Assembly: GCA_051294375.1 (NCBI GenBank)
Contig: JBJCIZ010001662.1
Span: forward strand, 1-64,000
Reading direction: 5' to 3'
Source of the DNA: Paraspadella gotoi
Taxonomy: Eukaryota > Animalia > Chaetognatha
Length of the DNA: 64,000 nucleotides
The notes below the pieces were generated by a model, which ran no database searches, was not told where the DNA came from, and was given only the letters and a program-made list of their open reading frames with translations. The number at the start of each line of letters is the position of its first letter. Within the stretch, counting starts at the first letter, position 1. This document shows, in pieces, positions 4,220 to 60,462 of this stretch. The translations under genes were made by a program, and so were the position numbers.

Positions 4220-4451
4220 TGAAGAGACAGTGATAATTGTTGTGTTAATGACAGAACCGTTCCATATAAGCAGTCCCTGAGCTTCGGATCAGGCTGTAAC
4301 ACCGTGTTACAGGCGGGTTAAGCGCCTCGTCCTTCTTAATTGCCAGACGACCACCGGGCTAGAACCCCGGACCTTTGGGTTGGGAAGCGAATGACTTGCC
4401 TCCGGCACCATTGGCCGCTGATGAACGGTTGGTGGATTTTAGTCCACCATA
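4220..4451 (-). mobile_element. Solo LTR of the tRNA-containing TRIM
   Basis: Reverse complement of the 57242-57475 LTR, flanked by a TGTT/TGTT TSD. An empty-site paralogue of the host repeat is at ~16680-16720 (opposite strand). Confidence 0.88.
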
Positions 4452-23247: not shown

Positions 23248-23300
23248 TATGGTGAACCAATGACCGCTGATGAACGGTTGGTGGATTTTGGTCCACCATA
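23248..23300. mobile_element. 53-bp derivative of the TRIM LTR with two inverted left ends
   Basis: GTAT|TATGGTG-AACCAATGACCGCTGATGAACGGTTGGTGGATTTTGGTC-CACCATA|GTAT. Confidence 0.7.
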
Positions 23301-25356: not shown

Positions 25357-26188
25357 TAATTAATTTTGTGATCGAGATTGTTGTTTTGTGATTGAGAGGC
25401 GAGACAAAGTGGAAAACTATTTTGACACGAATTAAAAAAATTAATATTAATTAACTAATTAATAATTATCTGATCAGCTGGTTACCGCTAATGATCGTGG
25501 GCAGATCCGGCATTGTTTGCTAAAACTTGTTTTCAATCAAACAATTAAAAAGCCTTTTGTTTTCAGATAGTTCCGCTAGGGAAATAAAAAATAAATAAAG
25601 AGAAGGAAAAAATCATTTTAATTTAATCGTTTTAAATTTTGCGCAAACATTTGTGAGCATATTTCGTCGAATTGTTATGATAATTATTTAATAAAATGTT
25701 AGTAATAGGGGCCGGAGCATTTTTAGATTCGAGTGGAGAGGTACTTATTAGACGTAATGAACATTTCCAAAAATAATTATAGTAACACAAGGGCCAAAAT
25801 ATCTCACATATCTTGGCGCACAATTAAAAGCGATAAAATTTTTCTGCCTATTTTTAATTTTATGCTCTATTTTTTAATAAATCAACCTTGCGGAACTTTT
25901 GGAAACCAGGCAATTTAATTGTTAAGAAAAAATATAATGTATTTAATATTATAATTTTAGAAGGTATATTTATTATTTATGAATAAAAATTTAATTTAAA
26001 ATTTATGTCATTTATATACACATTGATATTATTAGAGGGTGAGATTCTGGGTTATATGGCCATTTAGATACTGTATGCAATATCGTTCAGTGTTTTGGTC
26101 AGAACCGATTCTCGGTCAGAAAAACGGGGAGAGCATTTTCTAATATGAAGACTTCTGTAATTGACTTCTTGATTTTGTGTGGTTTCAG

Positions 26189-26420
26189 CTACCATGATGG
26201 TCTTGAAAAATGGGTGGAGGTTGGAAACTCTGGAATTTTTCGTCCAGAGATGATTCTCCCCATGGGACTGCCCAAAGATGTTGGCGTCGTTGCATGGGGT
26301 CTATCATTAGAAAGACCCACAATGATCAAATATGGATATGACAACATCCGAGACTTGATCGGTCCGAGGGTCGATCTCGAAATGATCCGACGAAATCCTC
26401 TCTGCCGCCTGGAGAAGTAA
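26189..26420 (+). CDS. FARSA: Phenylalanyl-tRNA synthetase alpha subunit, last coding exon
   Basis: Acceptor GGTTTCAG|C. Translates [64 protein letters not shown], containing motif 3 ([10 protein letters not shown]). Confidence 0.96.
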
Positions 26421-26559: not shown

Positions 26560-26592
26560 TTTCTTGTGTAATCGAGTAATAGTCAGTTTTCA

Positions 26593-26865
26593 ATGATGAG
26601 AATGCCATCGGCGCCCGTAACGACGAGATCTTCGAAAGAAGCGACGCCGACGACGATCAAATGGCTCGTCGACTTCACCGGCCGCAGCGGGGCTCGAAGC
26701 GCTGGCCTCGGCGATCGACATATCAGCCAATGCGCTCAGTTCGATCTCGCCTCGCCGCCGGGATTTAGCCATGACAAGCTGGCCCCTGATGTCGCCGCAA
26801 AGGAACAAGATCACAAGCTCGTGGTTAAGAGGTCGTGGGACGTCGCCCTGGGACCTTTGAAACAG
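26593..26865 (+). CDS. EMC4: ER membrane protein complex subunit 4 (TMEM85), first coding exon
   Basis: KWLVDF...PPGF..DK..PD...KEQDHKLVVKRSWDVALGPLKQ matches the EMC4 N-terminus (KWAIEL..PVGY..KRCWDIALGPLKQ). It ends CAG|GTTGT (donor at 26866). I did not find downstream exons in this window. Confidence 0.9.
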
Positions 26866-29800: not shown

Positions 29801-31134
29801 TCTCTAAATGACAAAAAAAATTTCTTCAAGTTTTATTTTGAAATTTAAGTATGTACCAATAAAATAAGTGAGATACTCTCGCTTTGCCGAATTTTTATTT
29901 AACAAAGTTTGTACTGCGTAATTTAAAAAAAATTATTTTTTTTAAATAAACTTTTGAAAGAAAAGAGGTAGCAAGGTGGATGTGTGATCAAATTAAAGCC
30001 TAATCATAGGACAACTTTCTAAAAGAGTTTTAATTAATTAAATCCATAAATCTTTATACACAGCTTTTGTTTAAATCAGAGTTAAAAGTATAACAGTTTT
30101 TTGCTTTAAAATTTTAATGAAGGCATATAAATTTTGTTTTTTCTTTTGTAATTTTGAAAAAGGAAAGACTGAATTAATTTGTTTGATTATTAATTTTTTT
30201 TATTCCAATAAAATGCTTATATTTTTCAGTTAAAGTAAAAAACAAGCAAAAATTTATGTTGTAGCTTGATAAAATGTATTTTTAATATTAAAAATGATAA
30301 ATACAAATGTTTTCAGCTTGATAAAAACAGTCTGGACATCTACCTTCTTGTCTGTGAAAAAAAAATCGTCATTTTTCATTATCTTTAACTGCAAACTAAA
30401 AGCTTGACAACTGCTTGTTTATATAAATAAAGTTGTAAAAATAATTATATAGCTGGGTAAACATATTTGACAAAAAAACATCATTGAGTTAAATTGTATT
30501 GAATAATTTTTTTTTAAAATATAGCAAGGAATTATAATTCTATTATTTTTATCATGCCTATTTAATTAAGAAAAAAATATTTCTCGTAATAGCCCATTAG
30601 AAAGGTTTCATTGATGAGCTTATGATAAAATATATTTAGATTTTCTTTACCTAGCCCCTATTATTCACAAGATAATAAAAGGTCATGTTATCATGTCAAA
30701 TAGTCCAGATTATCTGTACCCTTTCTGCCAACCTGCATTCAATTTTCTTTTTTTCCCTTTCAAATGTATTAAATAAAAAAATTATTTGAGAGAATCAATT
30801 GGTGTGGAGGTTGCCATTGGTAAGCCTTAGTTACCCCACTTCCCGATCAAAATTTTAATGATGAGGTTTTTTTTTCCATCTATTTGAGACATAACTCTAA
30901 CTATTAGTACTATTATTTTTTCTATTAGAGATCTATGAATAAATATGAATAAGTAACTTTTCACCTATATTAGTGTATCAAAGATGGATTCGGATTTTTA
31001 AAAAACGTTTACACAAGTGATCACACACCTAATATACTTTAATTTAAAACACCTTTTATTCGATTTGAAATTCTCAACATGAGAGATCCCGCGGTCGATT
31101 TTATCTGGCCCTAAATTATGCAATATTAGCTTAA

Positions 31135-31953
31135 GAGGAAAGGTCATTCAGCATAACAATATGTAATCATTGATGTATTAGAGCTAATATATCGAGAAAT
31201 ACATTATAAATCTCAAGTATTCACAAAAAAAATAAGTTTTTATTTATATGTAAACATTCGTTTTTATTCATTTTTTTTTAAATGGGTACATAACAAAATT
31301 TTAAGTTAAATGGTAAGCACATTTTTTAAAGATTTGTTTTTCAAATCTGTTTGTTAAATAATTCTAGTAGAAGTTAAAAACACGGTGTGGGTTAGTTTAG
31401 AAGGGGGAATTAAAACAATTAAATTCTCGTTACTCTGTTGGTTTTTCCAAGTCAGTGAACAAAATCTTCAGTTAAATAGATGGTAAAGAAATTCAAGCTA
31501 CATAGGAATATACACTGAATTTGAAGAGTTGCAGCCTAAACGACTGCAATAATATTGATTAAAAAAATTTGATTAAGCAATCTTAAAAACATTTGTAAAA
31601 TTGTAATAGAGAGACATTTTGATAAACGCGTTCCATGTTGAAAGAATTCAGGGTTAAAGTTTAAAAACGTTTCATTTTCAAGGATACAAGTTGAAATTTA
31701 AAATGTCTCTCTATTATTTTTCTAAATTCAGTAATAGAAATTCATAAAAATATCAGATGGATTGACCTTGTTTCGTTTTGACCCTGCAACTCTTTCAGAT
31801 AGGTTTTCTTTTATTTTATATTATAATTAAACCAATATAAAATGGGGTAGAATGCATCAAATGTTTAAAGTGAATACATTTTCGGAATGCCAGGAGCTCA
31901 GCTTTACTCGCATTTTAGCTCTATTTTGAAGTTGAATTGAATGACCCTTTTTC
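31135..31953. mobile_element. Kolobok-like non-autonomous element, monomer
   Basis: TTAA|GAGGAAAGGTCATTCA ... TGAATGACCCTTTTTC|TTAA. Duplicate at 40436-41255. Confidence 0.78.
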
Positions 31954-34077
31954 TTAAGATTCGAAGTTGTCAGAATAACGATGAGTCTCCTTTTATTCGC
32001 GTAATTTTAAAAACGTTTCTTATTTGTAATATTATAATATATTTAAATATTAAAGTTTTTAGAATATATGTTTATAAATATAAAATAGTTTATAGATTAT
32101 ACTAATAATAAATGATATAATAAAAAATATTTTTAAGTTTTTAAATATATTTTATAAATATAAATGTTGGATTACATTATAAATTATACTTATGAGAAGC
32201 TGAAATGCTTTTTCTAGCAAATGAGGAATTCTGATACAGATTTTTGCCATAAAAAATTAATAAATTAACTTATTTTTCTTGCTTAATAAATCCTTAATTA
32301 CATAATTATTATTAACTTTATAAATGAATAATTCGATTCGTTTAATTTACCTGTTATATTGTGCTTTTAATAAATAGGTAAATTTCCGAGAAAACATGAT
32401 ACATGGAAAGATAACAAGATAACCAATTAAAGAGGTAAAATATTTGAAGAGGAATAAAAAATAATTAATATTAATATTATAAAATATATTAATATAATAT
32501 TAATATAATATATAATAATAGTATTTATAATTATATATAAATTATTTTTTTTTCTTTTAAAAAAACTAGGAAAATTATTACAATTTTTAGAGCAAAGCTT
32601 GGAAAGCAGGGCAATTTTATGATTAGTCTAATCTTATCTCCATGTACCATCATAATAAATCATGACTTTTACATTATAATACTGATATCAATAGATAATT
32701 GAAAAATATTTTTCTCTTTCACTAATACAAAATTTTAAAAAGTCTAAAATTAAAAGCTAAAAACTGTGAAAGTTAAATGTCATTCATTTCGATATAATTC
32801 TAACTGTATATACATATAGATTTAAGTGAATAAGGATCCCTATCTCATGGTAGTCGAGATCAATGATTTAAGTTTTTATATGTTTTGAACTGATCGGCTT
32901 AAGAATTAATAATACTGGTCTATAAACATTAACTAATTAAACAATAATAAATATTTATGTAACTATTAGTAATAATAAAGTAGTTTCATTCAAAGCAAAC
33001 AGAGAACACTTGAGAAGGAAACTTAACTTCCAAGATTTTAACAGATTGCTTTGTTTATAAGTTTTTTTAAATCAAAACCCCGTATATTAATAGTCCAATA
33101 CATGTCAATTAATATAAAATAATCAAGCTTTGTCCTGTATACCTTGACAGATGGCTTTTATCTTAATTCTTCAATCAACAATATTGAAAAGTTCAGTAAA
33201 CAAATTTTGATAAAAACTCCAAAAACACATGATAATATTTTAATTGTTAACAACAACGATGAAAGCAATGAATTAGTCCGAATATGCATTTTATGTTAAA
33301 AAAATTAATGTCCTTATTGTTAACCATTAAAAAAGTTATTATTTCGCTCTAAATCAGAACACAAATATAGACGGAAATAATTACATTGACTAAAAACTCA
33401 AAAAACATCCGAGATAATTTTTTTATAATTGAAAAAAAGGTTGTGCCTATGGATGCGCAAACCCTCTACATCCCTTGGAATTATTAGCCTATTAAATTAT
33501 CAAAACGACCAAACCACCCGAGCGCCGAGTCTCGTCCAGCACCCGCATTCACCTTCCTCTTCCTCCTCCTATGCACCCAGGGCTCGAAGGCTCACTCGCC
33601 AGTTTTTCACTTCTCGTTTCCTCCTCTCTCCTCTCTACTTCCTCCTCTCCGCTCCTTCGAATTTCCCTCCAAAGTTTTTTTGTACACCTTTTTTGCCTTT
33701 TTTAAGTAGTATATTACACGTTTTTTCCTAGCATTTTGCCTTCTTTCCCTTACGACTTCGTTATATTAGACGCCATGATTACACCATCACCAGATAGAGT
33801 GCGCCCAATGTGTTACTCTTACATAACCACTATGAAATCCCCAAACATTTTCCACATCCACGCCGCTGAGCTGCCTAATCCGGGACTTAACCAAAAATAA
33901 GATCTCACCCTTAAAATTTCCCTCTTTCTCTCTACCCATCACAAATAACAAACCTTTCACCCATTTCCTCTTTTCCTCTCTGAACCCGCTCTCTGACACC
34001 TTATTTAACCTTTCTCTGAGGTTATAAAAATGACAAACTATAGTACATAGGAAAAAGGCTTAATAATTGTATATTAA

Positions 34078-34728
34078 TGAAGAGACAGTATTATATGTTA
34101 TATGTTAGTGAAGAACCGATTCAATATAAGCAGTCCTGAAGCTTCGGATCAGGCTGTAACACCATGTTACAGGCGGTTAAGCCGCCCGGTCCCTCTTAAC
34201 TGCCAGACGACGCACCGGGCTACGAACCCCGACCTTTGGGTGGGAGGCCGCAACTGACTTGCCTCCGGCAGCCAATGGCCGCTGATGAACGTTGGTGGAT
34301 TTTAGTCACCATACATCCCCCCTCCGCGTAGGAGAATCTGTTGCGTCTCTTCAGTGAATTGTTGTGGTGGAAAGTTCGTACCAAGTTTGAGGCATGTTTG
34401 CCTGATGTGTTGTGGGCGGAAGTGCATCGCCAGGTTGAGGCATGTCGCCTGAAAAGTGTTGTTGTTGTGTTGTTTTCGGAATCGGGGCTACCAATGAAGA
34501 GACAGTAATTATTGTTATATGTAGTGACTAGAACCGTTCATAATAAGCAGTCCCCTGAGCTTCGGATAAGGCTGTAACACCATGTTACAGGCGGGTTAAG
34601 CGCCCGTCCTTCTAAACTGCCAGACTAAACACCGGGCTAGAACCCCGGAACGCTTTGGTTGGGAGGCGAATGACTTGCTCCGGCACCAATGGCCGCTGAT
34701 GAACGGTTGTGGATTTTAGTCCACCATA
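34078..34728 (-). mobile_element. Full TRIM with tRNA-containing LTRs (error-rich copy)
   Basis: LTRs at 34078-34313 and 34495-34728 around a ~180-bp interior with PBS and PPT, matching 59245-59891. Confidence 0.85.
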
Positions 34729-35157
34729 ATAAAAATTATATAAAAAGAAGAAGGGGATAAAATTGTCAATCAAATATATCCGATTTAAAGCATTTATGTT
34801 TTTGTATAAACTTTGATCATTGTTAAAATATAATTTTATCTTTTATAAATTTACTTATATTTATTTTATTTTCATTGACTATATAAGATCGGATTTTAAT
34901 TAATTTTCACTTTAAAATAAGTTCAGTACTGAATTTCAGTAAAGCAAAACAAAACGATTAATTTCTAAAACGTTTTCCTATAAAAACAGAAAAAACTATA
35001 TAAAATTACACATAGTCAGCTATTAAAAACTATAAATTATTAAGCATATATGAAATTATTAATAAACATTAGAAAATAATATTAATAAGTACAACATGTT
35101 AATTATAAAAAAACTAAACTCATTCGTCAGATTCATCAGGCAAAATGCTCTTTTATG

Positions 35158-35209
35158 AAACAAGTTTGAGCAAAGTCGGGATCTGCTGATAAGCAGAACC
35201 GACTAAAAA
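35158..35209 (-). mobile_element. ~50-bp minimal family A element (both termini fused)
   Basis: AAACAAGTTTGAGCAAA-GTCGGGATCTGCTGATAAGCAGAACCGACTAAAAA. It is absent from the duplicated copy (TATGAAAAATTCG at ~44437-44449). Confidence 0.75.
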
Positions 35210-35428: not shown

Positions 35429-38150
35429 TTAAATAAAAATCCTTACTTTTTTCTGACGGCGACGTCGCCATCGTCTCTCTTTATGCAGAAATTTTTGGAT
35501 GAGGGGAGGTGAAGAAATTCTCCGCGCCGTCAGGGGAACCCTTGTTAAAGGCTCTCCCCTCTCCTTCTGCTGACCAGCGGAGGTCCTCCTTTCACGCTTC
35601 AGTCTTTCACCAGCAGGTTCCTTTGACATGTTCTGACGTTTACCACTTGTCTGACTGTAAACAAGGTCAGTCAGTCTGTCATTCATTGTTTCATTTCTTT
35701 TACGTCGTCTTCTTTTGGCATTACATCGCCCATTTGACCCTTGCCTTCTCTCTTGGTCATGCTTCAAGGCGGAGCCCCTTCCATCAGCAGATTCCAGCTC
35801 TGGAACAGGCGGAGCAGCACCTTTAAAAGAGGTTTGCTGCAAATCTACTGACGGGGCTAAATCATGCTTTTCTTTTGACAATTCAACCTTCTTTACAGTA
35901 GTAGATGGATTCAGGGTAATCAAAGCAGACAGAACTGGTCCTGGAAGGCTTTTCTTCCCGGTCACAGTCCAGCCCCAAAGTGTGCACAAGGCTGTGAATC
36001 CAGACTTGCCTCCTCTTCGGAGGTTCACTACAGATCGGCATCGACCTACAGGTTCACCCTCCTGAGATAGGCTCATCGGAGCAGCCTGCTGCTGACAATC
36101 ATTTTCAGTGTTTTCCATATCAGATTGATTAGGGCTCCAGTCTTCTGCTTCAGAAGGCGGCCTTCCTAAACCAATATCTTCAATTTCTAAGTTCTTAAGA
36201 GTCTGTGCATCATGGCTAGCAGGCATGTCTGCTACAACCTTGTCCTGTTTTCTTTTCAACTTTAGATTCTCATTCAGGCAATTCTGTTTGGAAAAACCTA
36301 ATCGATCAGCAGTTTCCAACTCAGTAAATGGAAGAGTGGGAAAATCACCACCCTGACCAACCTCATAAGCTGGAGCAGCTTTTCCAAAAGAGTTATGCTG
36401 CAGATCCGCTGCCAAGATCCAGTCAATCTTTTTTTTTCGATACTTGACCCTCTTTTTCAATAGGTGGGTCACCAAATTCTGGCCTGGAGTCTGGGTTTTG
36501 CTGATCAGTCAGCTTCTCTCTCTCCAGGGTCACCTCAGTTGGTAAATTTGTGTCAGAATGGGTCACAGTCGACACACCAAGGGTGAGTGGAGATTTTAAG
36601 TCACTCATCTCTATGGACATTCAGCATGGCTGAATAATCCGCCAAAGCATGAATATCTTCCAAAGGGCTTGTCAGACTGGCCAAATGCTGACAGTCATTA
36701 TCTATCATCTTAGTTTTAGGATCCATCTCGACAGTGGTAGTCTTGGGGTCTTCACTGGAGGAGATCACATTTTCTTCAATACTTTGATCTGGATTTCAAT
36801 CCTCTGCATCAGGTTTACTGGAAGAGGCGGTACCAACAGATCCTAAATCACATTTTGATTGAACAGTTTTCTGTTCTTTGACTTCAGCATTGATGGAAGT
36901 ACCATCACTGAAGGAGAAAACAGTCTCTGGATTACCAAAAGACTTCAACTCCTCAGCATCAGCAGAGGTGGAAGAAGAGATCGTACATTTATCATTATCA
37001 CAAATGACATCTTTTTTCTCGGAGGGAGCGTCTTTTTTAAAAATTTTCAACCCACTCCTGAGTTGTCATTTGTGATCGAGCCTTAAGATCAGCCTTAGTT
37101 CTTTTCTTATCTAAATCCTTTCTTCTCTCCTTGGAGGCCTTCCTTCTCCTTTCTTTCTTCTTTCTGGCTCTTTTCTTTTCATTCAACTCTTTGAGCCTAT
37201 TTTCTAATTCCAGCTTTTCCATTTCATACTCTCTCTTTCTCTCCTTAACCTCTATCTTCTTCTGTTCATAAGACTTAAAGGACAGGGTAAAATCTTGCTC
37301 ATTAAATCTTTTTTCAGTTACTAAGCTGGCTGACCCCCAATTCCTCACACTCCTTGACTGCCTGCTTGAGTGGGAAGATTGTCCCTCAGAGGCCTTGCAA
37401 GGGCGGCTTTGATTCCGCTTAGTCTTAGGAATGGCATGCGACATCACAGTACCATCTCTAATACTTCCTTGTCTCAGCACACTAGAAGAGGTACAACCCA
37501 GGGACAATCCAACCCTTGGAACAACTTTTTCAATCTGCAGCGGCTCCTTAAATTCCTCAAAGTGAACAGGCCTCACTGCACCTTGACTGAAAGGGATATC
37601 CAAGGTCTCACAAGCTGAGTCAGAGAAGGACAAAATAGTTGGGACCATAGGTACTCCTTTCAATGCCATCAAATTTTCCCATGCCTTCAGTGTAGCCCTT
37701 GCCGCACTTACTTCATGGTTCTTGTCCTTGTCAGGCTGAAGGTGCGGCGACCAATGAAGTGAGGTCGAAGCCGTGGGGTTCTGTCTGGGTAAGGAAGAGA
37801 AAAAACAAATTAAAAAAGACGAGAATCTCGTCCAAATCAAAATTCAAAAGGGCGAGCAGCGCCGTCTCCAGTGCCGAGTTGCAAAGCAAACTGGTGGCGT
37901 GCTTCAGCCGTCAATTCTTTCTAAAAATTCACAATCTTTTTCGTCAGCCAACGCCTTTAATGGAGGGAAGACCAGAGATTGGAAAATCTCCGGCGTCAGT
38001 CGTCACCGCGCGTCCAATAAACGTCGTTGGAGAGCAAGAGAGAAAGGTCAGCACCAGAGCCGACCGTCGTCGCTGCCTTTCGAAGTTTTGATTGCTTCGA
38101 CGTCGGGAGTCTTTAGGCCGGGGGGTTCTGGGGTCCCCAGCATCAAATGA
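35429..38150 (-). mobile_element. Decayed retroelement-like coding region, possibly BEL/Pao gag-pro related
   Basis: Chain of frameshifted minus-strand ORFs (37037..37840, 36796..37050, 36423..36620, 35429..36475) with a coiled-coil segment and ALCTLWGWTVTG, which resembles the BEL/Pao A..T.xGW.V.G motif. No RT or integrase motifs seen. Confidence 0.4.
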
Positions 38151-41100
38151 AGGTCGCAGCGCACTTTAATTCGAAGCCATGGCTCGCGACCAGAAGCTCG
38201 TAACAAAGAATATCTAATTTATAATATATTTATATATATGACACAATGTGATGGACGAAAGACGGTCTCGTGCTGATTTTGTCCCTTTAAAATTGTTTCG
38301 GAGCCAAATTAATTGATCATTATTTTTGGTAATATGTGCGATATACATACTGGACATTACTGTATCTGATCATAACCCTTGACCATCAACAAAAAAGCTA
38401 ACTAGATCAAAAATAGTAAAAAAGATGAAGCAATATAGCTTGAAACGCTTACAAAATTTTAGACCATTGCTTTTATAAATGCAAAAAAATATTAATATTA
38501 TTAAAACAAAACTTTAACGATAACCTAATAGTTAACCGAGACCAAGATGAATATTTTTTACCCATCATTTCCTCAATTTATATGGAATCATTTGTTTGTA
38601 ATTAGTCAATTAATCTAAATAACAATATGACAAATTCATTTTCAATTTTCTTTATGAATGGAAGTTTTCTCTGCTTACTCCCTTGTGTCTAATTATTTAA
38701 TATTTTAAAAGATATTTTCAAAAACCTTATATAATTGCTCTATTTTTTACTTTTTTTCAATTCTTTCAAACCAAAACAACATCATAAAAACATTTTAAAT
38801 TTAATAAAAAATTGATTGAATGATTTTGGAAAAAAATATTTTGAAACTTGAGATAATGGAGTTATGATGAGTCAGGAAAAAAATTTTGCATTCTAAAAAA
38901 ATAGCCCTCTAGCCTTTCAATTTTTCTAGAGCTGATTTTTTATTTTTTTGATATTTTGATTTCTAGTGCAAAACCATTATTCTCAATGAGCATAGGTCGG
39001 ACGAAATTTTTTTCCAACAATTTGAAAAAATTTCAACTTTTTTAATTAGGCTTTTTGGGGGAAATAAATAAATAAATTATTATACGATGGGTAATCTGAA
39101 AGTGATTGTCTCTAAATGACAAAAAAAATTTCTTCAAGTTTTATTTTGAAATTAAGTATGTACCAATAAATAAGTGAGATACTCTCGCTTTGCCAGAATT
39201 TTTATTTAACAAAGATTTGTACTGCGTAATTTAAAAAAATTATTTTTTTAAATAAACTTTTGAAAGAAAAGAGGTAGCAAGGTGGATGTGTGATCAAATT
39301 AAAGCCCTAATCATAGGACAACTTTCTAAAAGAGTTTTATTAATTAAATCCATAAATCTTTATACAAGCTTTTGTTTAAATCAGAGTTAAAAGTATAACA
39401 GTTTTTTGCTTTAAAATTTTAATGAAGGCATATAAATTTTGTTTTTTCTTTTGTAATTTTGAAAAAGGAAAGACTGAATTAACATTTGTTTATTATTAAT
39501 TTTTTTTATTCCAATAAAATGCTTATATTTTTCAGTTAAAGTAAAAAACAAGCAAAAATTTATGTTGTAGCTTGATAAATGTATTTTTAATATTAAAAAT
39601 GATAAATACAAAATGTTTTCAGCTTGATAAAAACAGTCTGGACATCTACCTTCTTGTCTGTGAAAAAAAAATCGTCATTTTTCATTATCTTTAACTGCAA
39701 ACTAAAAGCTTGACAACTGCTTGTTTATCATAAATAAAGTTGTAAAAAAATATATAGCTGGTAAACATATTTGACAAAGAAAACATCATTGAGTTAAATT
39801 GTATTGAATAATTTTTTTTTAAAATATAGCAAAGGAATTTAATTCTATATTTTATCATGCCTATTTAATTAAGAAAAAATATTTCTCGTAATAGCCCATT
39901 AGAAAGGTTTCATTGACTGAGCTTATGATAAAAATTATTTAGATTTTCTTTACCTAGCCCCTATTATTCACAAGATAATAAAAGGTCATGTTATCATGTC
40001 AAATAGTCCAATTATCTGTACCCTTTCTGGCAACCTGCATTCCAATTTCTTTTTTTCCCTTTCAAATGTATTAAATAAAAAAATTATTTGAGAGAAACAA
40101 TTGGTGTGGAGGTTGCCATTGGTAAGCCTTAGTTACCCCACTTCCCGATCAAAATTTTAATGATGAGGTTTTTTTTTCCATCTATTTGAGAATAACTCTA
40201 ACTATTAGTACTATTATTTTTTCTATTAGAGATCTATGAATAAATATGAATAAGTAACTTTTCACCTATATTAGTGTATCAAAGATGGATTCGGATTTTT
40301 AAAAAACGTTTACACAAGTGATCACACACCTAATATACTTTAATTTAAAACACCTTTTATTCGATTTGAAATTCTCAACATGAGAGATCCCGCGGTCGAT
40401 TTTATCTGGCCCTAAATTATGCAATATTAGCTTAAGAGGAAAGGTCATTCAGCATAACAATATGTAATCATTGATGTATTAGAGCTAATATATCGAGAAA
40501 TACATTATAAATCTCAAGTATACACAAAAAAAATAAGTTTTTATTTATATGTAAACATTCGTTTTTATTCATTTTTTTTTAAATGGGTACATAACAAAAT
40601 TTTAAGTTAAATGGTAAGCACATTTTTTAAAGATTTGTTTTTCAAATCTGTTTGTTAAAATATTCTAGTAGAAGTTAAAAACACGGTGTGGGTTAGTTTA
40701 GAAGGGGGAATTAAAACAATTAAATACTCGTTACTCTGTTGGTTTTTCCAAGTCAGTGAACAAAATCTTCAGTTAAATAGATGGTAAAGAAATTCAAGCT
40801 ACATAGGAATATACACTGAATTTGAAGAGTTGCAGCCTAAACGACTGCAATAATATTGATTAAAAAAATTTGATTAAGCAATCTTAAAAACATTTGTAAA
40901 ATTGTAATAGAGAGACATTTTGATAAACGCGTTCCATGTTAGAAAGAATTCAGGGTTAAAGTTTAAAAACGTTTCATTTTCAAGGATACAAGTTGAAATT
41001 TAAAATGTCTCTCTATTATTTTTCTAAATTCAGTAATAGAAATTCATAAAAATATCAGATGGATTGACCTTGTTTCGTTTTGACCCTGCAACTCTTTCAG

Positions 41101-43349
41101 ATAGGTTTTCTTTTATTTTATATTATAATTAAACCAATATAAAATGGGGTAGAATGCATCAAATGTTTAAAGTGAATACATTTTCGGAATGCCAGGAGCT
41201 CAGCTTTACTCGCATTTTAGCTCTATTTTGAAGTTGAATTGAATGACCCTTTTTCTTAAGATTCGAAGTTGTCAGAATAACGATGAGTCTCCTTTTATTC
41301 GCGTAATTTTAAAAACGTTTCTCATATTGGTTAATATTATAAAATTTAAATATTAAAGTTTTTAGAATATATGTATTATATAATATAAAATAAGTTATAG
41401 GATTTACTAATAATAAATCTGTATATAATAAATTAATTAGTTAGAATATATGTTTAAAATATAAGTTTATGGATTCTTATATCATAGATAAATACTTTAA
41501 ACGAGAAGCTCGAAATGCTTTTTCCTATGACAAATGAGGAATTCGATACAGGATTTTTGCCCAATAAAAATTACATAAAATTAACTTATTTTTCTTGCTT
41601 AAAATCCTTATTACATTAATATTATTAACTTTTATAAATTGAATAATTTCGATTCGTTTATTTTTACCGTTATATCAGTGCTTTTAATAAATAGGGTAAA
41701 TCTCCGAGAAAAACATGGATAATAACGATAACTAAATAACCAATTAAAAGTAAAAATTTGAAGAGGAATAAAAAGATAATATGAATATTATGAATAATAA
41801 TTAAATATATTATACAATAGATAATATCATATATTATAATGTGATTTATAATTATATATAAAATTATTTTTTTTTCTTTTAAAAACTAGGAAAATTTTAC
41901 ATTTTTAGAGCAAAGCTTGGAAAGCAGGGCAATTTTAGTGATTAGTCTAATCTTATCTCCATGTACTCATAATAAATCAGACTTTTACATTATAATCTGA
42001 TAATCATAATAATTGAAAAATATTTTTCTCTTCAACTAAACAAAAATTTTAAAAAGTCTAAAATTAAAAGCTAAAAACTGAAAGTTAAAAGTCAATTCAT
42101 TTCGATAAATTCCTAGTATATCAATATAGATTAAGTGAAAAGGATCCATTCAGTATCAGAATCAATGATTTAAGTTTATTATTATGTTTGAATGATCGGT
42201 AAGAAAATTAAATACCTGTTAAATACTGTCTAATAAACATTACTAAATTAAAATAGTAAATATTTTGTAACTATTATAAATAAAAGTAGTTTCATTCAAA
42301 GCAAACAGAGAACACTTGAGAAGGAAACTTAACTTCCAAGATTTTAAAGAATTGCTTTTGTTTTATAAGTTTTTTAAATCAAAACTCGTATATGTAGATA
42401 GTCCAAACATGTCAATTAATTATAAAATTAATCAAAGCTTGTCTGTAAACCTTGACAGATGGCTTTATTAATTCTTCAATCAACAATATTGAAAAAGTCA
42501 GTAAACAAATTTTGATTAAAAACTCAAAAACAATATGATAATATTTTAATTGTTAACAACAACGATGAAAGCTATGAATTAGTCCGAAAATATGCATTTT
42601 TATGTAAAAAAATTATGTCCTTATTGTTAACCATTAAAAAGTTATTATTTCGTCTCTAAATCAGACAACAAAATAGACGAAATAATACATTGACTAAAAA
42701 CTCAAAAAAACATCCGAGATAATTTTTTATAATTGAAAAAAAAGGTTGCCTATGGATGCGCAAACCCTCATACATCCTGAATTATTAGCCTATTAATAGT
42801 TATCAACGACCAAACCAGCCCGAGCGCGAGTCTCGTCAGCCACGCATTCACCTTCCTCTTCCTCCTCCTAGCACCCAGGGCTCGAGGCTCACCCAGTTTT
42901 CACTTCCTCGTTTCTCCTCTCTCTCTTCTACTTCCTCCTCTCCGCTCCTTCTGATTTTTCCCTCCAGTTTTTGTACACCTTTTTTGCCTTTTTTAGTAGT
43001 ATATACACGTTTTCCTACATTTTGCCTTCTTCCTTTACGACTTCGTTAGTTAGACCCAGATTACCACCATCCCAGATAGAGTGGCGCCCAATGTGTTACT
43101 CTTACATAACCACTAATGAAATCCCCAAACATTTTCCACTCACCCCTGAGCTGCTAACCGGGACTTAACCAAAATGAGAATCTCACCTATTTCCCTATTT
43201 CCTCTCTAACCATCACAATAACAAACCTCACCCATTTCCCTCTTTCCTCTCTGACCCGCTCTCTGAACATCCTATTTAAACGCTTTCTCTGAGGTTATAA
43301 AAATGAAACTATAGTACATAGGAAAAAGGCTTTTATAATTGTAATATAA

Positions 43350-44004
43350 TGAAAGAGACAGTAATATTGTTATATGTTAGTGACAGAACCGTTCAATATA
43401 AGCAGTCCCTGAGCTTGCGATCAGGCTGTAACACATGTTACAGGCGGGTTAAGCGGCCCCGTCCCTCTTAACTGCCAGACGACCACCGGCTAGAACCCCG
43501 GACCTTTGGGTTGGGAGGCGAATGACTTGCTCCGGCACCAATGGCCGCTGATGAAACGGTTGGTGGATTTTAGTCCACCATACATCCCCCCTCCCGCCGT
43601 AGGGAGAAAGTCTGTTGCGTCTCTTCAGTGAATTGTTGTTGGTGGAAAGTTCGTCACCAAGTGGCATGTTGCCTGAATGTGTTGTGGCGGAAAGTGCATC
43701 GCCAGGTTGAGGCATGTCGCCTGAAAGTGTTGTTGTTGTGTTGTGTTCGGAAGTCGGGCTCACCAATGAAGAGACAGTAATTATTGTTATATGTTATAGT
43801 GACAGAACCGTTAATATAAGCAGTCCCTGAGCTTCGGATCAGGCTGTAACACCATGTTACAGGCGGGTTAAGCGCCCCGTCCCTCTTTAACTGCCAGACG
43901 ACCACCGGGCTAGAACCCCGGACCTTTGGGTTGGGAGGACGAATGACTTGCCTCCGGCACGCAATGGCCGCTGATGAACGGTTGGTGGATTTTAGTCCAC
44001 CATA
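43350..44004 (-). mobile_element. Full TRIM with tRNA-containing LTRs
   Basis: LTRs at 43350-43582 and 43767-44004. Minus-strand PBS TGGTGAGCCCGAC, PPT GGGAGGGGGATG, ATAA/ATAA TSD. Confidence 0.9.
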
Positions 44005-46519
44005 ATAATAATAGTTTAAGAAGAAGGGGATAAAATTGTAATCAAATCATATCCGTTTAAAGCATTTATGTTTATGTATAAACTTTGTCATTGTTAAAAA
44101 AATAATAATTTATCTTTTCATAAATATTAATATTATATTTATTATTATTTATCATTTGACTATATAAGATCGGATTTTATATTAATTTTTCTTCAAAAAT
44201 AAGTTCAGACTGAATTTCAGTAAAGCAAAACAAAAAATAGCGATTAATTTCTAAACTGTTTTCCTATAAAAACAGAAAAAAACTATTAAAAATTACAACC
44301 TGCAGCTACTAAAAACTAATAAAATTATTAAGAATTATGAAATTATTAATAAAACATAGAAAATATCATTAATAAGACCTTGTTATTAAAAAAAACTAAA
44401 CTCATTGTCAGATTTCACAGGCAAAGATGCTCTTTTTATGAAAAATTCGCAAATATCCGCCAGGTTCGCTAGTATTTTTTGTTCTTTTTGACCGGCTTGA
44501 CCGGTCTTTAACATTAAAAAAGATCGAAATGACGTATTCGATCTCGGGATCTCTCATGTTCGATGCATTAAAGTTAAATATTTTTATACGAAAATTATTT
44601 ATTTATTCGTCTGATTAAGTGTGCGAACGTTTTAATGAAACTCGATGTCTGTATATTTCCAACTTTTGGGACTACCTATATTCAGTCATATCTGAAAAAC
44701 AAAAAAAGATTTTGCATTGATATTTTGGATATCAACATATGAAACTATAACGTTTCAAAAAATAAAAAGAAATATAATAATATTGAACAGTGAATTTTTT
44801 TTATGCACGGAACAGTAACGTTACGCCATTTTTCATTGTGTCATATATATATATTATATTGTAACACAATTAAAAACTTTGTTTTTTCTCTAAATATATA
44901 TATTTATAATATATATATTTTTATATTGGTTGTACCAATTTCATATACATATATATATAAAAGATATATATATATATATAAGATTCTGGCGACTCGAGTT
45001 GACCTCAGTCAACCAGATGACCTTCGTCACAAAGAGACTGTGAACCCTCAGTCGTCGTCGTCGTCGGCTGACTACTTCTTCTTACATTGTAAAGTTTCTC
45101 TCTCTTTTCGAATTCCAAGCCAAGAACTAAAAACTACGTTTTTATCTTTTTAATCGACGTTCAAATGAATTGCTATTAACTACATTTTACCCACGTTAAA
45201 TCTTCTTCAAGTATATCGTCTTTTATTATTGTTTTGAACAATTGTAATAGGTTGATGAAACGTGGAACTCTTTTTGCCTTGTTACTGACTGTTTAAATAG
45301 TTATTATAAAATTAATTAAATTTAATCAACGACTTAATTCTTTGTGACGGGGGTCAACAAAAGATATAATTTAAAAAAGCCGCGGTTGCTCGTCGCAAGG
45401 CCATGGCTTTCGGATTTTGATTCGCAGTAGAGTCAATTATGCGCGTTTGGGTCCAATATAAAATGTAAAACGTAGCTAAAGCCCTTTGATTTCTTCGGAT
45501 TTATTTGAACGTTTAGAAAATTGATCCCGCGCTCCCCAAAAAATTGAAAGTAGACACCCTGGGCTCTCTTCCGGTGTATTCAAAATACTTTTTTTGATTG
45601 CTTGAGGTCGGAATTAACGGTTAAAAAAGTTGTTTATTTGATTACCTAAACAAGCAATCAAGCTTGGATTTTTTTTTTCATTTTTTTAGTCAGGTGCTTG
45701 GAGGAGACCAAATGCCTTCTATATATAAAGTCAAAGTGTTCTTTTGTTGAGTACAATTGAAGCACGAGCTGGTCTACGGAGAGGAAGATTTGAAGGGGTA
45801 GAACCAATCTATTTCAAATGCATTTTAATACATGAAAATGTTGAAATTAAGCTCGCGCTCCCCATTCATGTCCTTCCCAAGAACCTACGATTTCCGAATA
45901 TACCCATATTGCCTCACTTTATTAAGGGCGTGACCTCGGAATTTTGAAAAATATCGATTTCTAGAGAAAACTTGATCCCCCCATCGTGCGAAACGACTGG
46001 CACCCCCACTTAATTTTAATACAAATGAAAATAAAATCTTTTACAAGCTAAGATTGGAAAAAATTGTAACAATTTCCAATTGTAAACAATTGTAACATTT
46101 TTTTTCCTTTTATTTCTTTAAATTATATATGTATTTTTCTTCCTATTTTTGTCAGTTGCTGCCTCTTCTGAACCCTTTAAAAACGAGTTCAGGCTCTGCA
46201 GTTATTGTACAACTGCCTTCCAGCGGCTGTCCAGCTTTCTCTCTTTCTCTGTCTGTCTCTCTCTGTCTTTCTCTTTCTGTCTCTCTGTCTCTCTCCCTCT
46301 CTCTGTACAATCTCTTGTGTGATGGTTTTTTGAAAAAATTTTGATTATTTTTTTCCTTTTAAAAACTTTTATTATCGCCATTTATTCTGCGCTTTTTTCT
46401 CAATGCAAAATCCCAAATTTACATACGAGATTTTCGTGGATTTATTCTCTTTCTCTCTTTCTTTCTCTCTCTCTCTCTCTTTCACTCATACACGCATTTG
46501 TTTGTTTTATTTATGATGA

Positions 46520-51100: not shown

Positions 51101-51714
51101 NNNNNNNNNNNNNNNNNNNNNNNNNNNNNNNAACGTTTAAATACAAACAGAATGACACCTTTTTGAAGACTATGACCATTTTCCGCGGAAAAAAATGTGT
51201 CTAATATACATTTAATATAAAAGGGGAAAAAAATCATAATCAATTAATGAAACAGGTTTTTTTGTTTTTTTTCCATTTAAACTCATTTCCACTTAAAACG
51301 ATTCCATCGAAACTTGGTTTCCTGTTCAATCACACACCTTCCTACTCACATACAAAATTCCAGGTCAATCGCCCCATCCACTCATGAGCAATTGGTGTTC
51401 AAATAGTGAATTATATATTTTTTTTTTCATTTAAACTTATTTCCACTCGGACGATTCCATCGAAACTTTATATCAAGCTCAATCACACACTTCCCTACCC
51501 ACACACACAAATTTCATTCAAATCCATCCATCCAATCAAGAGTAATTGGTGTTTTTTGCTAAGGTGGGACGGACAGACGAACATTTTTTTTGCATAATTT
51601 ATCATAATTTGATGTTTTGACATGATATAAGTTAGTGCCCGACAATATTGAGGGGCGACGACGGCGACCGACAAAGTGAATTATAGAGTTGGGATCTGCT
51701 GATCCGACTAAAAA
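48156..51714 (-). mobile_element. Family A DINE-1/Helentron-like element (spans an N gap, with internal inserts) splitting the Gypsy RNase H
   Basis: AAACAAGTTTGAGCAAACAATGTCGGATCTGCC at 48156 and GGATCTGCTGATCCGACTAAAAA at ~51692-51714. The flanks rejoin as WQPLGF|FSAR. Confidence 0.75.
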
Positions 51715-51935
51715 CCTAAGGGTTGCCATTGGCATTGACCACCAATCTTCTGCTCCAGGATGCCGCCGATGGTCGTCAGTGACGCATCGACGGTCAGGGC
51801 CAGAGGTGCCCCGTCCACAGGGTGGACAAGCATAGTTGCATTTTCTAGAGCTTCTATCGACTTGAAGGCTTGAGTCATCTCCTCGTTCCATTTGAGGACT
51901 CGGGTATTGCCTTTTAAGGCTTGGTACAATGGTAA
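51715..51935 (-). mobile_element. Gypsy pol fragment (RT connection and RNase H N-terminus)
   Basis: LYQALKG...LKWNEEMTQAF....ALENATMLVHP..GAPLALTVDAS..IGGILEQ....WQPLGF. Confidence 0.9.
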
Positions 51936-51939
51936 GTTG

Positions 51940-52851
51940 CTTCACTTGCATACTTTTTTTTAACTTGCATAATTTTTTCAACTTGCATAATTTTTTTAAC
52001 TTGCATAATTTTTTTCACTTGCATAAATTTTTCAACTTGTATAATTTTTTCAACTTGTATAATTTTTTCAACTTGCATATTTTTTCAACTTGCATACTTT
52101 TTTGACTTGCATACTTTTTTTGACTTGCATACTTTTTTCAACTTGCATACTTTTTTCAACTTGCATACTTTTTTCAACTTGCATCCTTTTTTAACTTGTA
52201 TACTTTTTTTCAACTTGTATACTTTTTTCAACTTGTATACTTTTTTCAACTTGTATACTTTTTTCAACTTGCATACTTTTTTCTACTTGCATACTTTTTT
52301 CTACTTGCATACTTTTTTCTACTTGCATACTTTTTTCTACAACTTGCATACTTTTTTAACTTACATAATTTTTTCAACTTTCAACTATCTAGTTATCAAG
52401 TTCCATTAGTGAGGCATCAAAGAAAATTAATGCAAAAGTACTATAATATAATTTGCATATCGCAATATTTGAATCGATATAAACAAAGAAAATGGACACA
52501 CATTTCAACTTCCTCACTGCCTCACTAATGGAACTTGATAACTAGATAGTTGAAAGTTGAAAAAATTATGTAAGTTAAAAAAGTATGCAAGTTGTAGAAA
52601 AAAGTATGCAAGTAGAAAAAAGTATGCAAGTAGAAAAAAGTATGCAAGTAGAAAAAAGTATGCAAGTAGAAAAAAGTATGCAAGTTGAAAAAAGTATACA
52701 AGTTGAAAAAAGTATACAAGTTGAAAAAAAGTATACAAGTTAAAAAAGGATGCAAGTTGAAAAAGTATGCAAGTTGAAAAAAGTATGCAAGTTGAAAAAA
52801 GTATGCAAGTTGAAAAAAGTATGCAAGTCAAAAAAGTATGCAAGTTGAAAA
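51940..52851. repeat. ~20-bp minisatellite (CAACTTGCATACTTTTTT) as two inverted arrays
   Basis: Forward array at ~51940-52385 and reverse-complement array at ~52550-52851, with mirrored flanks, ending at an N gap. A related array is at ~62030-62290. Confidence 0.9.
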
Positions 52852-53114: not shown

Positions 53115-53991
53115 TTTTTTTTCGTCGTAATCGCTTACCGTTTGCGACTATATTGTAACGCTTTTGCACATAAGTGGCGTCGTAGTTGTCGTCGGCGTTC
53201 CAAATTATAGATCGCCTTTTTTATGATTAAATTTGGGTGTATGAAGCTGAAAATTTTTATACAGCTTCTCATCATCGATGTGCTTAAAATTGGTTATTGA
53301 ATATGTTTTGTTTGTTTTATCAAAACAAACAAATTTCCTCTTTTAGTTTTATGTTTTCTTTTTTTTCTCTTTTCTCTTTTGATTATATGTAGCTCTCTCT
53401 CTCTCTCTTTTCATCGGATTCATCGGAAAAAAAAAACGAATCTGCAGCTGGCTCTGCAGGGGCTCTTTCTTTTTCTCTCTTTTCTCCATCTTCTTCTGCT
53501 GCTGCCTTTTGAGTCTACAGCTGGCTCTGCAGGGGCTCTCTTTTTTTTTCTCTTTTCTCCTGCTGCTTCAGCTGCTGCCTTTTGATTTCTTTCTTTTTTT
53601 CTTTCTCTCTCTCTCTCTCTCTGCATTTTTATTTAAAAAAAAAATTGAATTAGGATTAACTCGTAAAATAAGGCATCGCATTTGTGCATGTTATCATTTT
53701 GCTATCGCAACATCGGGTTTTTATTTCGTTTTTTTTTTCAGGGACTGCGTCTGCTGATCGGTTTATTTTTTGACAATGAAAAAGTTTTTTTTTTTTTTTT
53801 TCAGAAACGGTAACGTTAATTTTTCTCAGTACTTTTTTTTTTTTAAATTGACAATCGCAAAATATAATTTTTTTTGCTGTTTATAAATTAATTTTCTTTT
53901 CTCAAATTTTATTTTTTTTAGTATAAAAATTTGGCGTCAATCCAGATTTTTCTTATGCGATTGCAACGATCCTTATGCTTTTAAGATTTTT
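53115..53991 (+). mobile_element. Family B DINE-1/Helentron-like element
   Basis: Same termini and CTGCAGCTGGCTCTGCAGGGG internal repeats as 23960-24578. Confidence 0.72.
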
Positions 53992-57241: not shown

Positions 57242-57475
57242 TATGGTGGACTAAAATCCACCAACCATTCATCAGCGGCCATTGGTGCCGGAGGCAAGTC
57301 ATTCGCCTCCCAACCCAAAGGTCCGGGGTTCTAGCCCGGTGGCCGCCTAGCAGTTAAGAGGGACGGGGCGCTTAACCCGCCTGTAACATGGTGTTACAGC
57401 CTGATCCGAAGCTCAGGGACTGCTTATATTGAACGGTTCTGTCATTAACACTTATCAATAATTACTGTCTCTTCA
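57242..57475 (+). mobile_element. Solo LTR of the tRNA-containing TRIM
   Basis: TATGGTGGAC...CTGTCTCTTCA, 234 bp, GTAT/GTAT TSD. Confidence 0.9.
57275..57346 (+). promoter_or_regulatory. tRNA-Gly(CCC)-like module with Pol III A- and B-box-like motifs inside the LTR (not a functional tRNA)
   Basis: 72 nt. Acceptor stem GCGGCCA/TGGCCGC, A-box-like TGGTGCCGGAGG, loop CT-CCC-AA, T arm CCGGG-GTTCTAG-CCCGG. The anticodon stem pairs only 3 of 5. Confidence 0.75.
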
Positions 57476-58984: not shown

Positions 58985-60462
58985 TTTTTATCGTCGCAAT
59001 CGCTTTGCGTTTGAGACGATATTGCTGTGGTTTTGCTCATAAGTGGCGTCGTCGTCGTCGTCATTGTCGTCGTCATTGGCGTTCCAAATTATAGATCGCA
59101 TTTTTTATGATTAAATTTCAATGTATGAAGCTGAAAATTTATATACAGCTTCTCATCATCGATGTGCTTAAAATTGAGTCAGGACAGTTATTATTAATAT
59201 TAAATATGTTTTGTTTACGTTTTATCAAAACAAATTTTCTCTCTTATGGTGGACTAAAATCCACCAACCGTTCATCAGCGGCCATTGGTGCCGGAGGCAA
59301 GTCAGTTGTCTCCCAACCCAAAGGTTCGGGATTCTAGCCCGGTGGCCACCTTGCAGTTAAGAGGGACGGGGCGCTTAACCCGCCTGTAACACGGTGTTAC
59401 AGCCTGATCCGAAGCTCAGGGACTGCTTATATTGAACGGTTTTGTCACTAACAAATAACAATTATCACTGTCTCATTGGTGAGCCCGACTTCCGAACACA
59501 ACAACAACAACACTTTCAGGCGACATGCCTCAACCTGGCGATGCACTTTCGCCAACAACACATCAGGCGACATGACTCAACTTGGTGACGCACTTTCCAC
59601 CAATAACAATTCACTGAAGAGACGCAACAGACTTCTCCCTACGGGAGGGGGGGGATGTATGGTGGACTAAAATCCACCAACCGTTCATCAGCGGCCATTA
59701 GTGCCGGAGGCAAGTCAGTTGCCTCCCAACCCAAAGGTCCGGGGTTCTAGCCCGGTGGCCGCCTAGCAGTTAAGAGGGACGGGGCGCTTAACCCGCGTGT
59801 AACACGGTGTTACAGCCTGATCCGAAGCTCAGGGACTGCTTATATTGAACGGTTCTGTCACTAACAAATAACAATTATCACTGTCTCTTCACTCTTTTAT
59901 TTTTTTGTTTCCTTCTCTCTCTCTTTTCTCTTTTAAATATATGTAGCTCTCTCTCTCTCTCTTTTCCCCAGTGCTGATTCATTGGGAAAAAAACGAATCT
60001 GCAGCTGGCTCTGCAGGGGCTCTTTTTTTTTCTTTTTTTTCCTGCTGCTGCTCCCTTCTGCGTCTGCAGCTGGCTCTGCAGGGGCTTATTCTTTTTCTCT
60101 TTTCTTCTGCTTCTTCTGCTGCTGCCTTTTGATTTCTTTTTTTTACTTTCTCTCTCTTTCTGCGTTTTTATTTAAAAAAAAATCGAAATAGGATTGAACT
60201 CGTAAAATTAGGCATCGTATTCGTGCCTGTTATCATTTTGCTGCGTCTGCTGATTAGTTTATTTTTTGACAATGAAAATTTTTTTTTTCTTTTTTTTCAG
60301 AAACTGTAACTTTAATTTATAATTTATAAAATCTAATTTTTCTTTCTGTTTATAAATTAATTTTCTTTTCACAATTTTTTTTTTTTTAGTATAAAAATTT
60401 GTCGTCAATCCAGATTTTTCTTATGCAATTGCGACGATCCTTATGATTTTAAGATTTTTTTT
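58985..60462 (+). mobile_element. Family B DINE-1/Helentron-like element interrupted by the TRIM
   Basis: Same termini as the other family B copies, with the TRIM inserted at 59245-59891. Confidence 0.72.
59245..59891 (+). mobile_element. Full TRIM (647 bp) with tRNA-containing LTRs
   Basis: 5' LTR 59245-59475, PBS TGGTGAGCCCGAC from 59477, PPT GGGAGGGGGGGGA at ~59643-59655, 3' LTR 59658-59891, CTCT/CTCT TSD. Confidence 0.93.

What the first reader, a model, noticed from the sequence alone, without database searches (positions are those of the whole stretch)
59245..59891. Miniature LTR retrotransposon (TRIM) whose LTRs carry a tRNA-derived Pol III promoter
Seen in sequence: a 647-bp non-coding LTR-PBS-interior-PPT-LTR element, in 3 full copies (34078, 43350, 59245; the first two belong to one duplicated block) and 2 solo LTRs (4220, 57242). 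Four of these have exact 4-bp TSDs (TGTT, ATAA, GTAT, CTCT), and two have empty-site paralogues in the window. Each LTR holds, 33 nt from its start, a 72-nt tRNA-Gly-like fold with acceptor stem, T arm and A/B-box-like motifs but a broken anticodon stem. Established knowledge: plant Cassandra TRIMs carry 5S rRNA in their LTRs, and as I recall tRNA-bearing TRIMs (Helenus type) have been reported, so the concept has precedent while this family and host may be new. Inference: it is a SINE/LTR hybrid, transcribed by Pol III and mobilised by a Gypsy RT/integrase.
Basis: partly seen in the sequence, partly recalled or inferred. Interest (0 to 1): 0.85.

Follow-up and report, generated by a model that had tools for sequence, protein, structure and literature searches.

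The report
Helenus-type mini-retrotransposon in an animal
This is a real, multi-copy, gene-less 647-base jumping element whose two end-repeats each carry a decayed tRNA gene that likely serves as its promoter; that kind of element was described in 2024 as Helenus, so this is a new family of a known kind, probably in a new animal host.

Summary
Observation confirmed. The window holds 3 full copies and 2 solo LTRs; 4 of 5 have exact 4-bp target duplications and 2 have empty-site paralogues. Sequencing runs show at least 152 distinct 3' junction contigs in one run. LTR nt 34-106 is tRNA-derived: a tRNA covariance model ranks six LTR copies 1-6 in the window (25.9-12.9 bits, best background 8.2), though Rfam and default ARAGORN miss it. 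The 'Gly' label is uncertain: the best sequence match was a eukaryotic tRNA-Arg(TCT). The primer site matches tRNA-Trp at 12 of 13 bases. All this fits animal Helenus (Kojima 2024, PMC10886601); no listed animal family resembles it. Pol III transcription and the Gypsy helper are inferred, not shown: the A and B boxes each lack a canonical base and are not more conserved than the rest. New here: a 53-bp insertion with two left LTR ends and its own 4-bp duplication (23248-23300). A 5S origin of the LTR 3' half was tested and rejected. The scan has found Helenus-like elements before in other genomes (19 notes, at least 8 genomes).

The parts
59245..59891 (+). Full element, 647 bp, ends TA...CA, flanked by CTCT (59241-59244, 59892-59895)
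   Evidence: contig loose ends pile up at both ends
59245..59475 (+). 5' LTR (231 nt; 8 substitutions and a 3-nt deletion against the 3' LTR, one of them in the B box at 59331)
59278..59350 (+). tRNA-derived segment of the 5' LTR
   Evidence: 13.2 bits, rank 5; ARAGORN 89.1
59477..59489 (+). Primer-binding site, 1 nt after the LTR end; 12 of 13 bases match the tRNA-Trp 3' end printed in Kojima Fig. S2
   Evidence: by-eye comparison with the Apis tRNA; host tRNA not available
59476..59657 (+). Internal region, 182 nt, non-coding, with a degenerate ~50-nt duplication and a 9-nt complement of the LTR 3' end
59643..59655 (+). Polypurine tract, followed by TG (59656-59657) that is absent from integrated left ends
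59658..59891 (+). 3' LTR (234 nt)
59691..59763 (+). tRNA-derived segment of the 3' LTR; A-box-like 59699-59710, B-box-like 59743-59753
   Evidence: 19.2 bits; ARAGORN 95.0; best match tRNA-Arg(TCT), 0 of 300 shuffles
59765..59841 (+). Second structured domain of the LTR (multi-hairpin junction, LTR nt ~108-184), origin unknown
   Evidence: fold z about -1.9; ARAGORN 80-83, reached by 21 and 5 of 600 shuffles; no 5S or tRNA model hit
57242..57475 (+). Solo LTR, GTAT duplication; best-preserved tRNA segment at 57275-57347
   Evidence: 25.9 bits, E about 1e-5
4220..4451 (-). Solo LTR, TGTT duplication, empty site at 16696-16699
43350..44004 (-). Full copy, ATAA duplication, indel-rich sequence
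34078..34728 (-). Full copy, same insertion as 43350 in the duplicated block, indel-rich; tRNA segments not detected by the model
23248..23300 (-). 53-bp mini insertion: LTR nt 1-45 followed by an inverted copy of the left end (13-bp inverted repeat, 12 of 13), flanked by an exact 4-bp duplication (ATAC in element orientation)
   Evidence: no empty-site paralogue in the window

Best explanation
It is a non-coding miniature LTR retrotransposon (TRIM) with a decayed tRNA gene in each LTR, which likely acts as an internal RNA polymerase III promoter, and it is likely copied and inserted by the enzymes of a Gypsy-type element. Shown: LTR-PBS-interior-PPT-LTR anatomy, precise TA...CA ends, 4-bp target duplications, empty sites, solo LTRs, many insertion junctions, tRNA ancestry of LTR nt 34-106. 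Inferred: Pol III would start near LTR nt 25-34 of the 5' LTR, meet no run of four T inside the element, and stop at the first T run of the AT-rich flank (4-23 nt past the end in all 5 copies). That would give an R region of about 200 nt and a U3 of about 30 nt. A host tRNA-Trp would prime minus-strand synthesis, the PPT the plus strand, and the integrase would trim two bases from each end (the TG before the 3' LTR; the TT after the 5' LTR) and insert with a 4-bp stagger into AT-rich DNA. Solo LTRs arise by LTR-LTR recombination. The tRNA segment probably came from a tRNA gene or SINE head captured in an LTR and is not a working tRNA.
For: Anatomy and duplications. Sharp ends with diverse AT-rich flanks: 152, 90 and 34 contigs with loose ends at the 3' end in three runs of three studies; 149 and 121. 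tRNA ancestry: own covariance model from 30 tRNAs puts 6 of 8 LTR copies at ranks 1-6 of 12 hits; local alignment to a eukaryotic tRNA-Arg(TCT) beats 300 of 300 shuffles for three LTRs and 297 of 300 for a fourth. GGTTC of box B is intact in register; a minor allele at 57289 (12.5%, 3.5%, 6% of depth in three runs) carries the canonical A14 of box A. Promoter faces into the element. No T4 run in 3 of 5 copies, one private run in each of the other two. Animal Helenus have 4-bp duplications and Gypsy-like primer sites, including Trp (PMC10886601).
Against: The majority allele lacks A14 in box A and has T at purine position 57 of box B. The boxes are not more conserved than the rest of the LTR. 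The lack of T4 runs is not significant (P 0.24 in dinucleotide shuffles). The copy named in the finding has a further B-box change in its 5' LTR (59331). No autonomous partner sharing ends or primer site is in the window. Kojima states that Pol III function of Helenus is itself not validated.
Confidence: 0.65

Rival explanations
1. Same TRIM, but the tRNA segment is a passive relic; RNA comes from a Pol II promoter in the LTR (a TATA-like stretch lies near LTR nt 183-192) or from host read-through transcripts.
For: Both boxes deviate from consensus in the majority allele; no excess conservation; Rfam tRNA model does not hit; two copies lie between exons of a host gene.
Against: The young majority form still keeps GGTTC, box spacing and orientation; no canonical AATAAA signal is in the LTR; the pattern recurs across Helenus lineages.
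Confidence: 0.25
2. The tRNA segment works at the RNA level: its intact acceptor stem and T arm are cut by RNase P or RNase Z, which would define the ends of the element RNA whichever polymerase made it.
For: Acceptor stem (7 bp) and T arm (5 bp) pair fully while D and anticodon stems and both boxes are damaged; the two common non-CpG variants in the acceptor stem (57343, 57346) turn G-C into G-U and keep pairing; domain folds with z -3.4 to -3.9.
Against: Only two such variants, one-sided, no compensatory double changes; pairing may simply be inherited; the minimum-energy fold of one copy is not a cloverleaf; equal cuts in both LTRs leave no R overlap or sever the primer site; no RNA evidence; 0 of 8 papers listed describe this for an LTR element by title or abstract start.
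Confidence: 0.07
3. An ordinary TRIM whose GC-rich hairpins only look like a tRNA.
For: Default ARAGORN and Rfam find nothing; relaxed ARAGORN gives many background hits (12 of 16 at 85%).
Against: Shuffle tests and the covariance model ranking all reject chance.
Confidence: 0.02

Closest known systems
Helenus (TRIMp3), Kojima 2024, Biology 13:119, PMC10886601 (read: main text parts 1-4 and 6 of 6; supplement parts 1 and 5-11 of 11; fungal parts 2-4 not read)
   Same: TRIM with tRNA-derived sequence in both LTRs, PBS and PPT, length within 311-1263 bp, 4-bp duplications as in animal families, GGTTC box B, non-functional tRNA, solo LTRs. Trp primer site as in Helenus-2_SyJa; TA...CA ends as in five wasp families (4_MusRap, 3_TheEle, 2_EuAn, 1_MeDo, 3_MeDo).
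   Different: No listed animal family resembles it in sequence (by eye over; three motif searches empty, line breaks could hide a hit). Box A is more decayed than TRGCY...YGG. The tRNA lies near the LTR start with 128 nt behind it and no T run, whereas many bivalve, wasp and fungal families have a T run just after it (fish families do not). Host appears distant from the named Helenus hosts that were among the hits.
Cassandra (plants; PMC7215508, passages only; bioRxiv 10.1101/2023.07.14.548913, passages only) and Ajax (nemerteans; PMC10886601)
   Same: TRIMs with a small-RNA-derived Pol III promoter in the LTR; Cassandra is the only lineage with shown Pol III transcription according to Kojima.
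   Different: Their promoter is 5S-derived (boxes A, IE, C); tested here and not found. Ajax makes 5-bp duplications.
tRNA-derived SINEs (SINE2)
   Same: tRNA-like head with A and B boxes and decayed cloverleaf.
   Different: SINEs use LINE target-primed insertion with tails; this has paired LTRs, PBS, PPT, solo LTRs and fixed 4-bp duplications.
Retrozymes (cited in PMC10886601; otherwise recalled)
   Same: Small non-autonomous LTR elements with structured RNA in each LTR.
   Different: They carry hammerhead ribozymes; Rfam scans found none here.

Membership tests
Helenus | TRIM anatomy: two LTRs, PBS, PPT, short, no protein | tested here: met
   no ORF of 150 aa in the copies; four shorter frames over the 34078 and 43350 copies gave no Pfam hit over cut-off (107 of 120 frames scanned; those left out include three that touch the ends of the 59245 copy)
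Helenus | tRNA-derived sequence inside the LTRs | tested here: met
   6 of 8 LTR copies detected, the two indel-rich LTRs of 34078 missed
Helenus | Box B core GGTTC kept | tested here: met
   present in 6 of 8 window LTRs; C56 variant at 3.2%, 0.9%, 0.5% of depth
Helenus | Box A TRGCY and YGG (most families) | tested here: inconclusive
   TRGY present, fifth base and YGG deviate, A14 only in a minor allele
Helenus | 4-bp target duplication (animal families) | tested here: met
   4 of 5 exact, 2 empty sites
Helenus | PBS complementary to a tRNA 3' end | tested here: met
   12 of 13 to Apis tRNA-Trp in Fig. S2; best of 95 other tRNAs 11 of 13 with G-U allowed and only 5 contiguous; host tRNA not available
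Helenus | tRNA copy not functional | tested here: met
   anticodon and D stems broken; ARAGORN default 0 genes, Rfam no hit
Helenus | Transcription by Pol III from the LTR | not testable with these tools
   no run on record as RNA; only contigs
Helenus | PBS shared with a Gypsy element of the same genome | not testable with these tools
   no whole genome held; no other PBS-like site in the window
A named Helenus family | Sequence similarity to a published consensus | tested here: not met
   (animal and plant consensi read by eye; Repbase and Dfam not available)
Cassandra / Ajax | 5S rRNA-derived box A, IE, box C in the LTR | tested here: not met
   0 of 15 hits of a 5S covariance model on an LTR; local alignments not above shuffles (70-461 of 500 reach them); nhmmer none
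SINE2 | LINE-type 3' tail and variable-length duplications, no LTRs | tested here: not met
Retrozyme | Hammerhead ribozyme in each LTR | tested here: not met
   Rfam scans

The most novel reading that the evidence does not exclude
The tRNA relic has changed jobs from DNA promoter to RNA processing signal: the element keeps only the acceptor stem and T arm so that RNase P/Z cut its RNA out of any read-through transcript, the way hammerheads do for retrozymes, with the overlapping second fold acting as a switch between the two LTRs.
Probability: 0.07. Interest if true: 0.75.

Novelty: new member of a known kind. Interest (0 to 1): 0.28.

Why it matters
It adds an independent, young, multi-copy Helenus-type family, probably in an animal lineage not listed by Kojima, which supports repeated capture of tRNA promoters by LTRs. 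Because its boxes are decayed and it has no internal terminator, it is a good test case for the open question of whether Helenus elements are really Pol III-driven and where their RNA ends. The 53-bp two-left-end insertion suggests the helper integrase accepts a TA end on both sides. None of this changes the known picture unless the RNA-processing reading holds.

Tried and rejected
Rfam scans: no tRNA, 5S or ribozyme hit; listed weak hits are chance. 5S origin of the LTR 3' half, suggested by an AGTTAAG stretch like 5S box A: rejected. Second tRNA (type II, Leu/Ser-like) in the 3' half: no sequence similarity (78 of 300 shuffles) and no hit of a 7-sequence type II model there; only relaxed ARAGORN sees it. 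Self-priming: only 5 bases near the LTR start complement the PBS, and the tRNA segment's own 3' end does not (read from the sequence). T4 depletion: not significant. Metagenome scan: 1 hit, L001, a chance 22-mer in a prokaryote-like contig. Viral contig scan for 5S boxes: 0. Expression: no RNA holder listed; X6 is only guessed as RNA and covers flanks too, so no inference. Organisms B and C: no cover of the element, which is no proof of absence. Summed depths were not used as copy numbers. Host placement: PheRS tree unresolved and only a quick tree; insert search gave 2 unnamed hits; EMC4-like frame gave none; Atlas none. Helper: only a 60-aa RNase H-like piece at 51711-51941, no link to the element. 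Literature searches for a report of this family or of tRNA-TRIMs after 2024 returned only Kojima 2024 and papers citing it (PMC13570524, passages); subscription papers, Repbase and Dfam were not searchable.

Full report
Observation. The element at 59245-59891 reads LTR (59245-59475), T, primer site (59477-59489), interior, polypurine tract (59643-59655), TG, LTR (59658-59891). blastn finds two more full copies, two solo LTRs and one short piece in the window. Four of five copies have exact 4-bp duplications, each with a chance of 0.0057. Paralogous repeats at 16696-16699 and 53338-53341 carry the 4-mer once, so they are empty sites. The copies at 34078 and 43350 are one insertion in a 7-kb block that differs mostly by indels, so there are four independent insertions. 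All six left ends in the window begin with TA; the TG that precedes the 3' LTR is not in them.

Beyond the window. No genome was held. Nine of 11 listed runs, from three studies of one coded organism, hold the stretch. Laying contigs shows sharp ends with diverse AT-rich flanks: 98 contigs loose at the left end and 149 at the right in X3, 121 at the right in X1; 152, 90 and 34 at the right end of the solo LTR in X3, X5, X6. These are lower bounds on insertion sites; summed depth is not a copy number. Most contigs are at least 95% alike (11999 of 17697 in X3), and minor variants are mostly CpG transitions, so the family is young. No run is on record as RNA, so expression is untested.

Is the segment tRNA-derived? 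Standard tools say nothing: ARAGORN default 0 genes, Rfam no tRNA hit even on 96 bases at E<=10. More sensitive tests agree that it is. ARAGORN scores of 89.4, 95.0 and 87.5 are reached by 2, 1 and 8 of 1000 shuffles, and a descriptor (7-bp acceptor, TRGY, GGTTC in place) by 9 of 20000. I collected 95 distinct tRNAs from prokaryote genomes and eukaryotic contaminant contigs in them. The best local match for all four LTRs tested is a eukaryotic tRNA-Arg(TCT) (L140), beaten by 0, 0, 3 and 0 of 300 shuffles. A covariance model from 30 of these, run without filters on the whole window, ranks six LTR copies 1-6 of 12 hits at 25.9-12.9 bits against 8.2 for the best background; the two indel-rich LTRs of the 34078 copy are missed. 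The isotype is open: CCC and the GCG start suggest Gly, the body suggests Arg, and my set had no eukaryotic Gly(CCC) or Trp.

Is it a working promoter? Box B keeps GGTTC, A58 and C61 but has T at purine 57. Box A keeps TRGY and GG but has C at A14, except in a minor allele (57289 C>A: 12.5%, 3.5%, 6% of depth). Sites varying in at least 10% of X3 depth number 5 in the 73-nt segment and 9 in the other 161 nt (40 of 46 variant rows were shown): no excess conservation, though a young family gives little power. The element has no run of four T apart from one private run in each of two copies, and the flank supplies one within 4-23 nt in all five; the absence is not significant on its own (P 0.24). 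The 5' LTR of the 59245 copy differs from its 3' LTR at 8 sites plus a 3-nt deletion, including a B-box G, so this copy is probably decaying.

The LTR 3' half. Nt 108-184 fold as a multi-hairpin junction (z about -1.9). I tested a 5S origin with eukaryotic 5S genes fetched and confirmed: local alignments are within the shuffle range, and a 5S model hits no LTR. A type II tRNA origin also failed, although relaxed ARAGORN scores are reached by only 21 and 5 of 600 shuffles. Its origin is unexplained.

Primer and helper. The primer site matches the Apis tRNA-Trp 3' end in Kojima's Fig. S2 at 12 of 13 bases, the primer of Gypsy-32_NVi and Helenus-2_SyJa; none of my 95 tRNAs fits as well. With 4-bp duplications this points to a Gypsy helper, as Kojima argues for animal Helenus. 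No helper was found in the window.

A missed piece. At 23248-23300 the first 45 nt of the LTR continue into an inverted copy of the left end, making a 53-bp unit with a 13-bp inverted repeat (12 of 13) and an exact 4-bp duplication. It is likely an integrase product with two left ends. It is a single case with no empty site in the window.

Host. PheRS alpha exons in the window are 88-90% identical to unnamed 583-585-aa proteins and at most about 81% to named animals, among them Lineus (81%), Mytilus (78%) and hymenopterans (76-78%). Fish, brachiopod and ctenophore sequences were not among the 120 hits shown. A quick tree of 56 of the fetched proteins places the unnamed relatives among animals without resolving them. 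So the host is an animal, probably outside the lineages Kojima lists; this is not proven.

Comparison and verdict. Kojima 2024 (PMC10886601) defines Helenus as TRIMs with tRNA-derived LTR sequence, 311-1263 bp, 4-bp duplications in animals. Every feature that could be tested is met, apart from a weak box A. TA...CA ends and a Trp primer have precedent in wasp families. No animal or plant consensus resembles this family by eye, and three motif searches were empty; three fungal supplement parts, Repbase and Dfam were not seen. Searches found no other report. The scan has noted the same kind in other genomes (unchecked AI notes, not used as support) and nothing on this DNA. It is a new member of a known kind. 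The most likely mechanism is Pol III transcription with Gypsy mobilisation (0.65); a passive relic (0.25) and RNA-level processing (0.07) remain open. Interest 0.28.

Noticed in passing
window 23248-23300 (-): 53-bp insertion made of the LTR left end and an inverted copy of it, with an exact 4-bp duplication; likely a fold-back or deletion product inserted by the same integrase.
   Followed up: partly
window 2521-2718, 18016-18168, 26184-26417 (+): Exons of a phenylalanyl-tRNA synthetase alpha gene with 8-15 kb gaps. Its nearest relatives (unnamed, 583-585 aa) and the window exon share an insert in the catalytic domain that weakly matches Arc1p_N_like (E 0.003-0.06).
   Followed up: partly
window 26572-26901 (+): Frame with a weak EMC4 match (E 5e-5, under cut-off) right behind the PheRS end.
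   Followed up: partly
window 21565-22663 (-): Broken frames that look by eye like a DIRS-type tyrosine recombinase region (recalled resemblance; Pfam and NCBIfam gave no hit).
   Followed up: partly
window 51711-51941 (-): Short RT-associated RNase H-like fragment (PF17919, E 1e-10) between 18-nt tandem repeats.
   Followed up: partly
window 28359-35160 / 37679-44443 and 8102-11271 / 11297-14442: Two duplicated blocks whose differences are mostly indels, suggesting long-read errors or uncollapsed haplotypes.
   Followed up: partly
window 57369-57380; Ajax consensi: A 12-base stretch in a hairpin of the LTR 3' half also occurs in both Ajax LTRs upstream of their 5S part; seen after the fact, may be chance.
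   Followed up: no
window 57242-57475 in runs X3, X5, X6: Minor variants are mostly C>T and G>A at CpG sites, which suggests the host methylates these copies.
   Followed up: partly
PMC10886601 supplement, Helenus-2_SyJa and Helenus-2_SyUm LTRs: These published wasp LTRs appear by eye to hold a hammerhead ribozyme core behind the tRNA part (recalled motif, not tested); I did not see this mentioned in the parts of the paper read.
   Followed up: no
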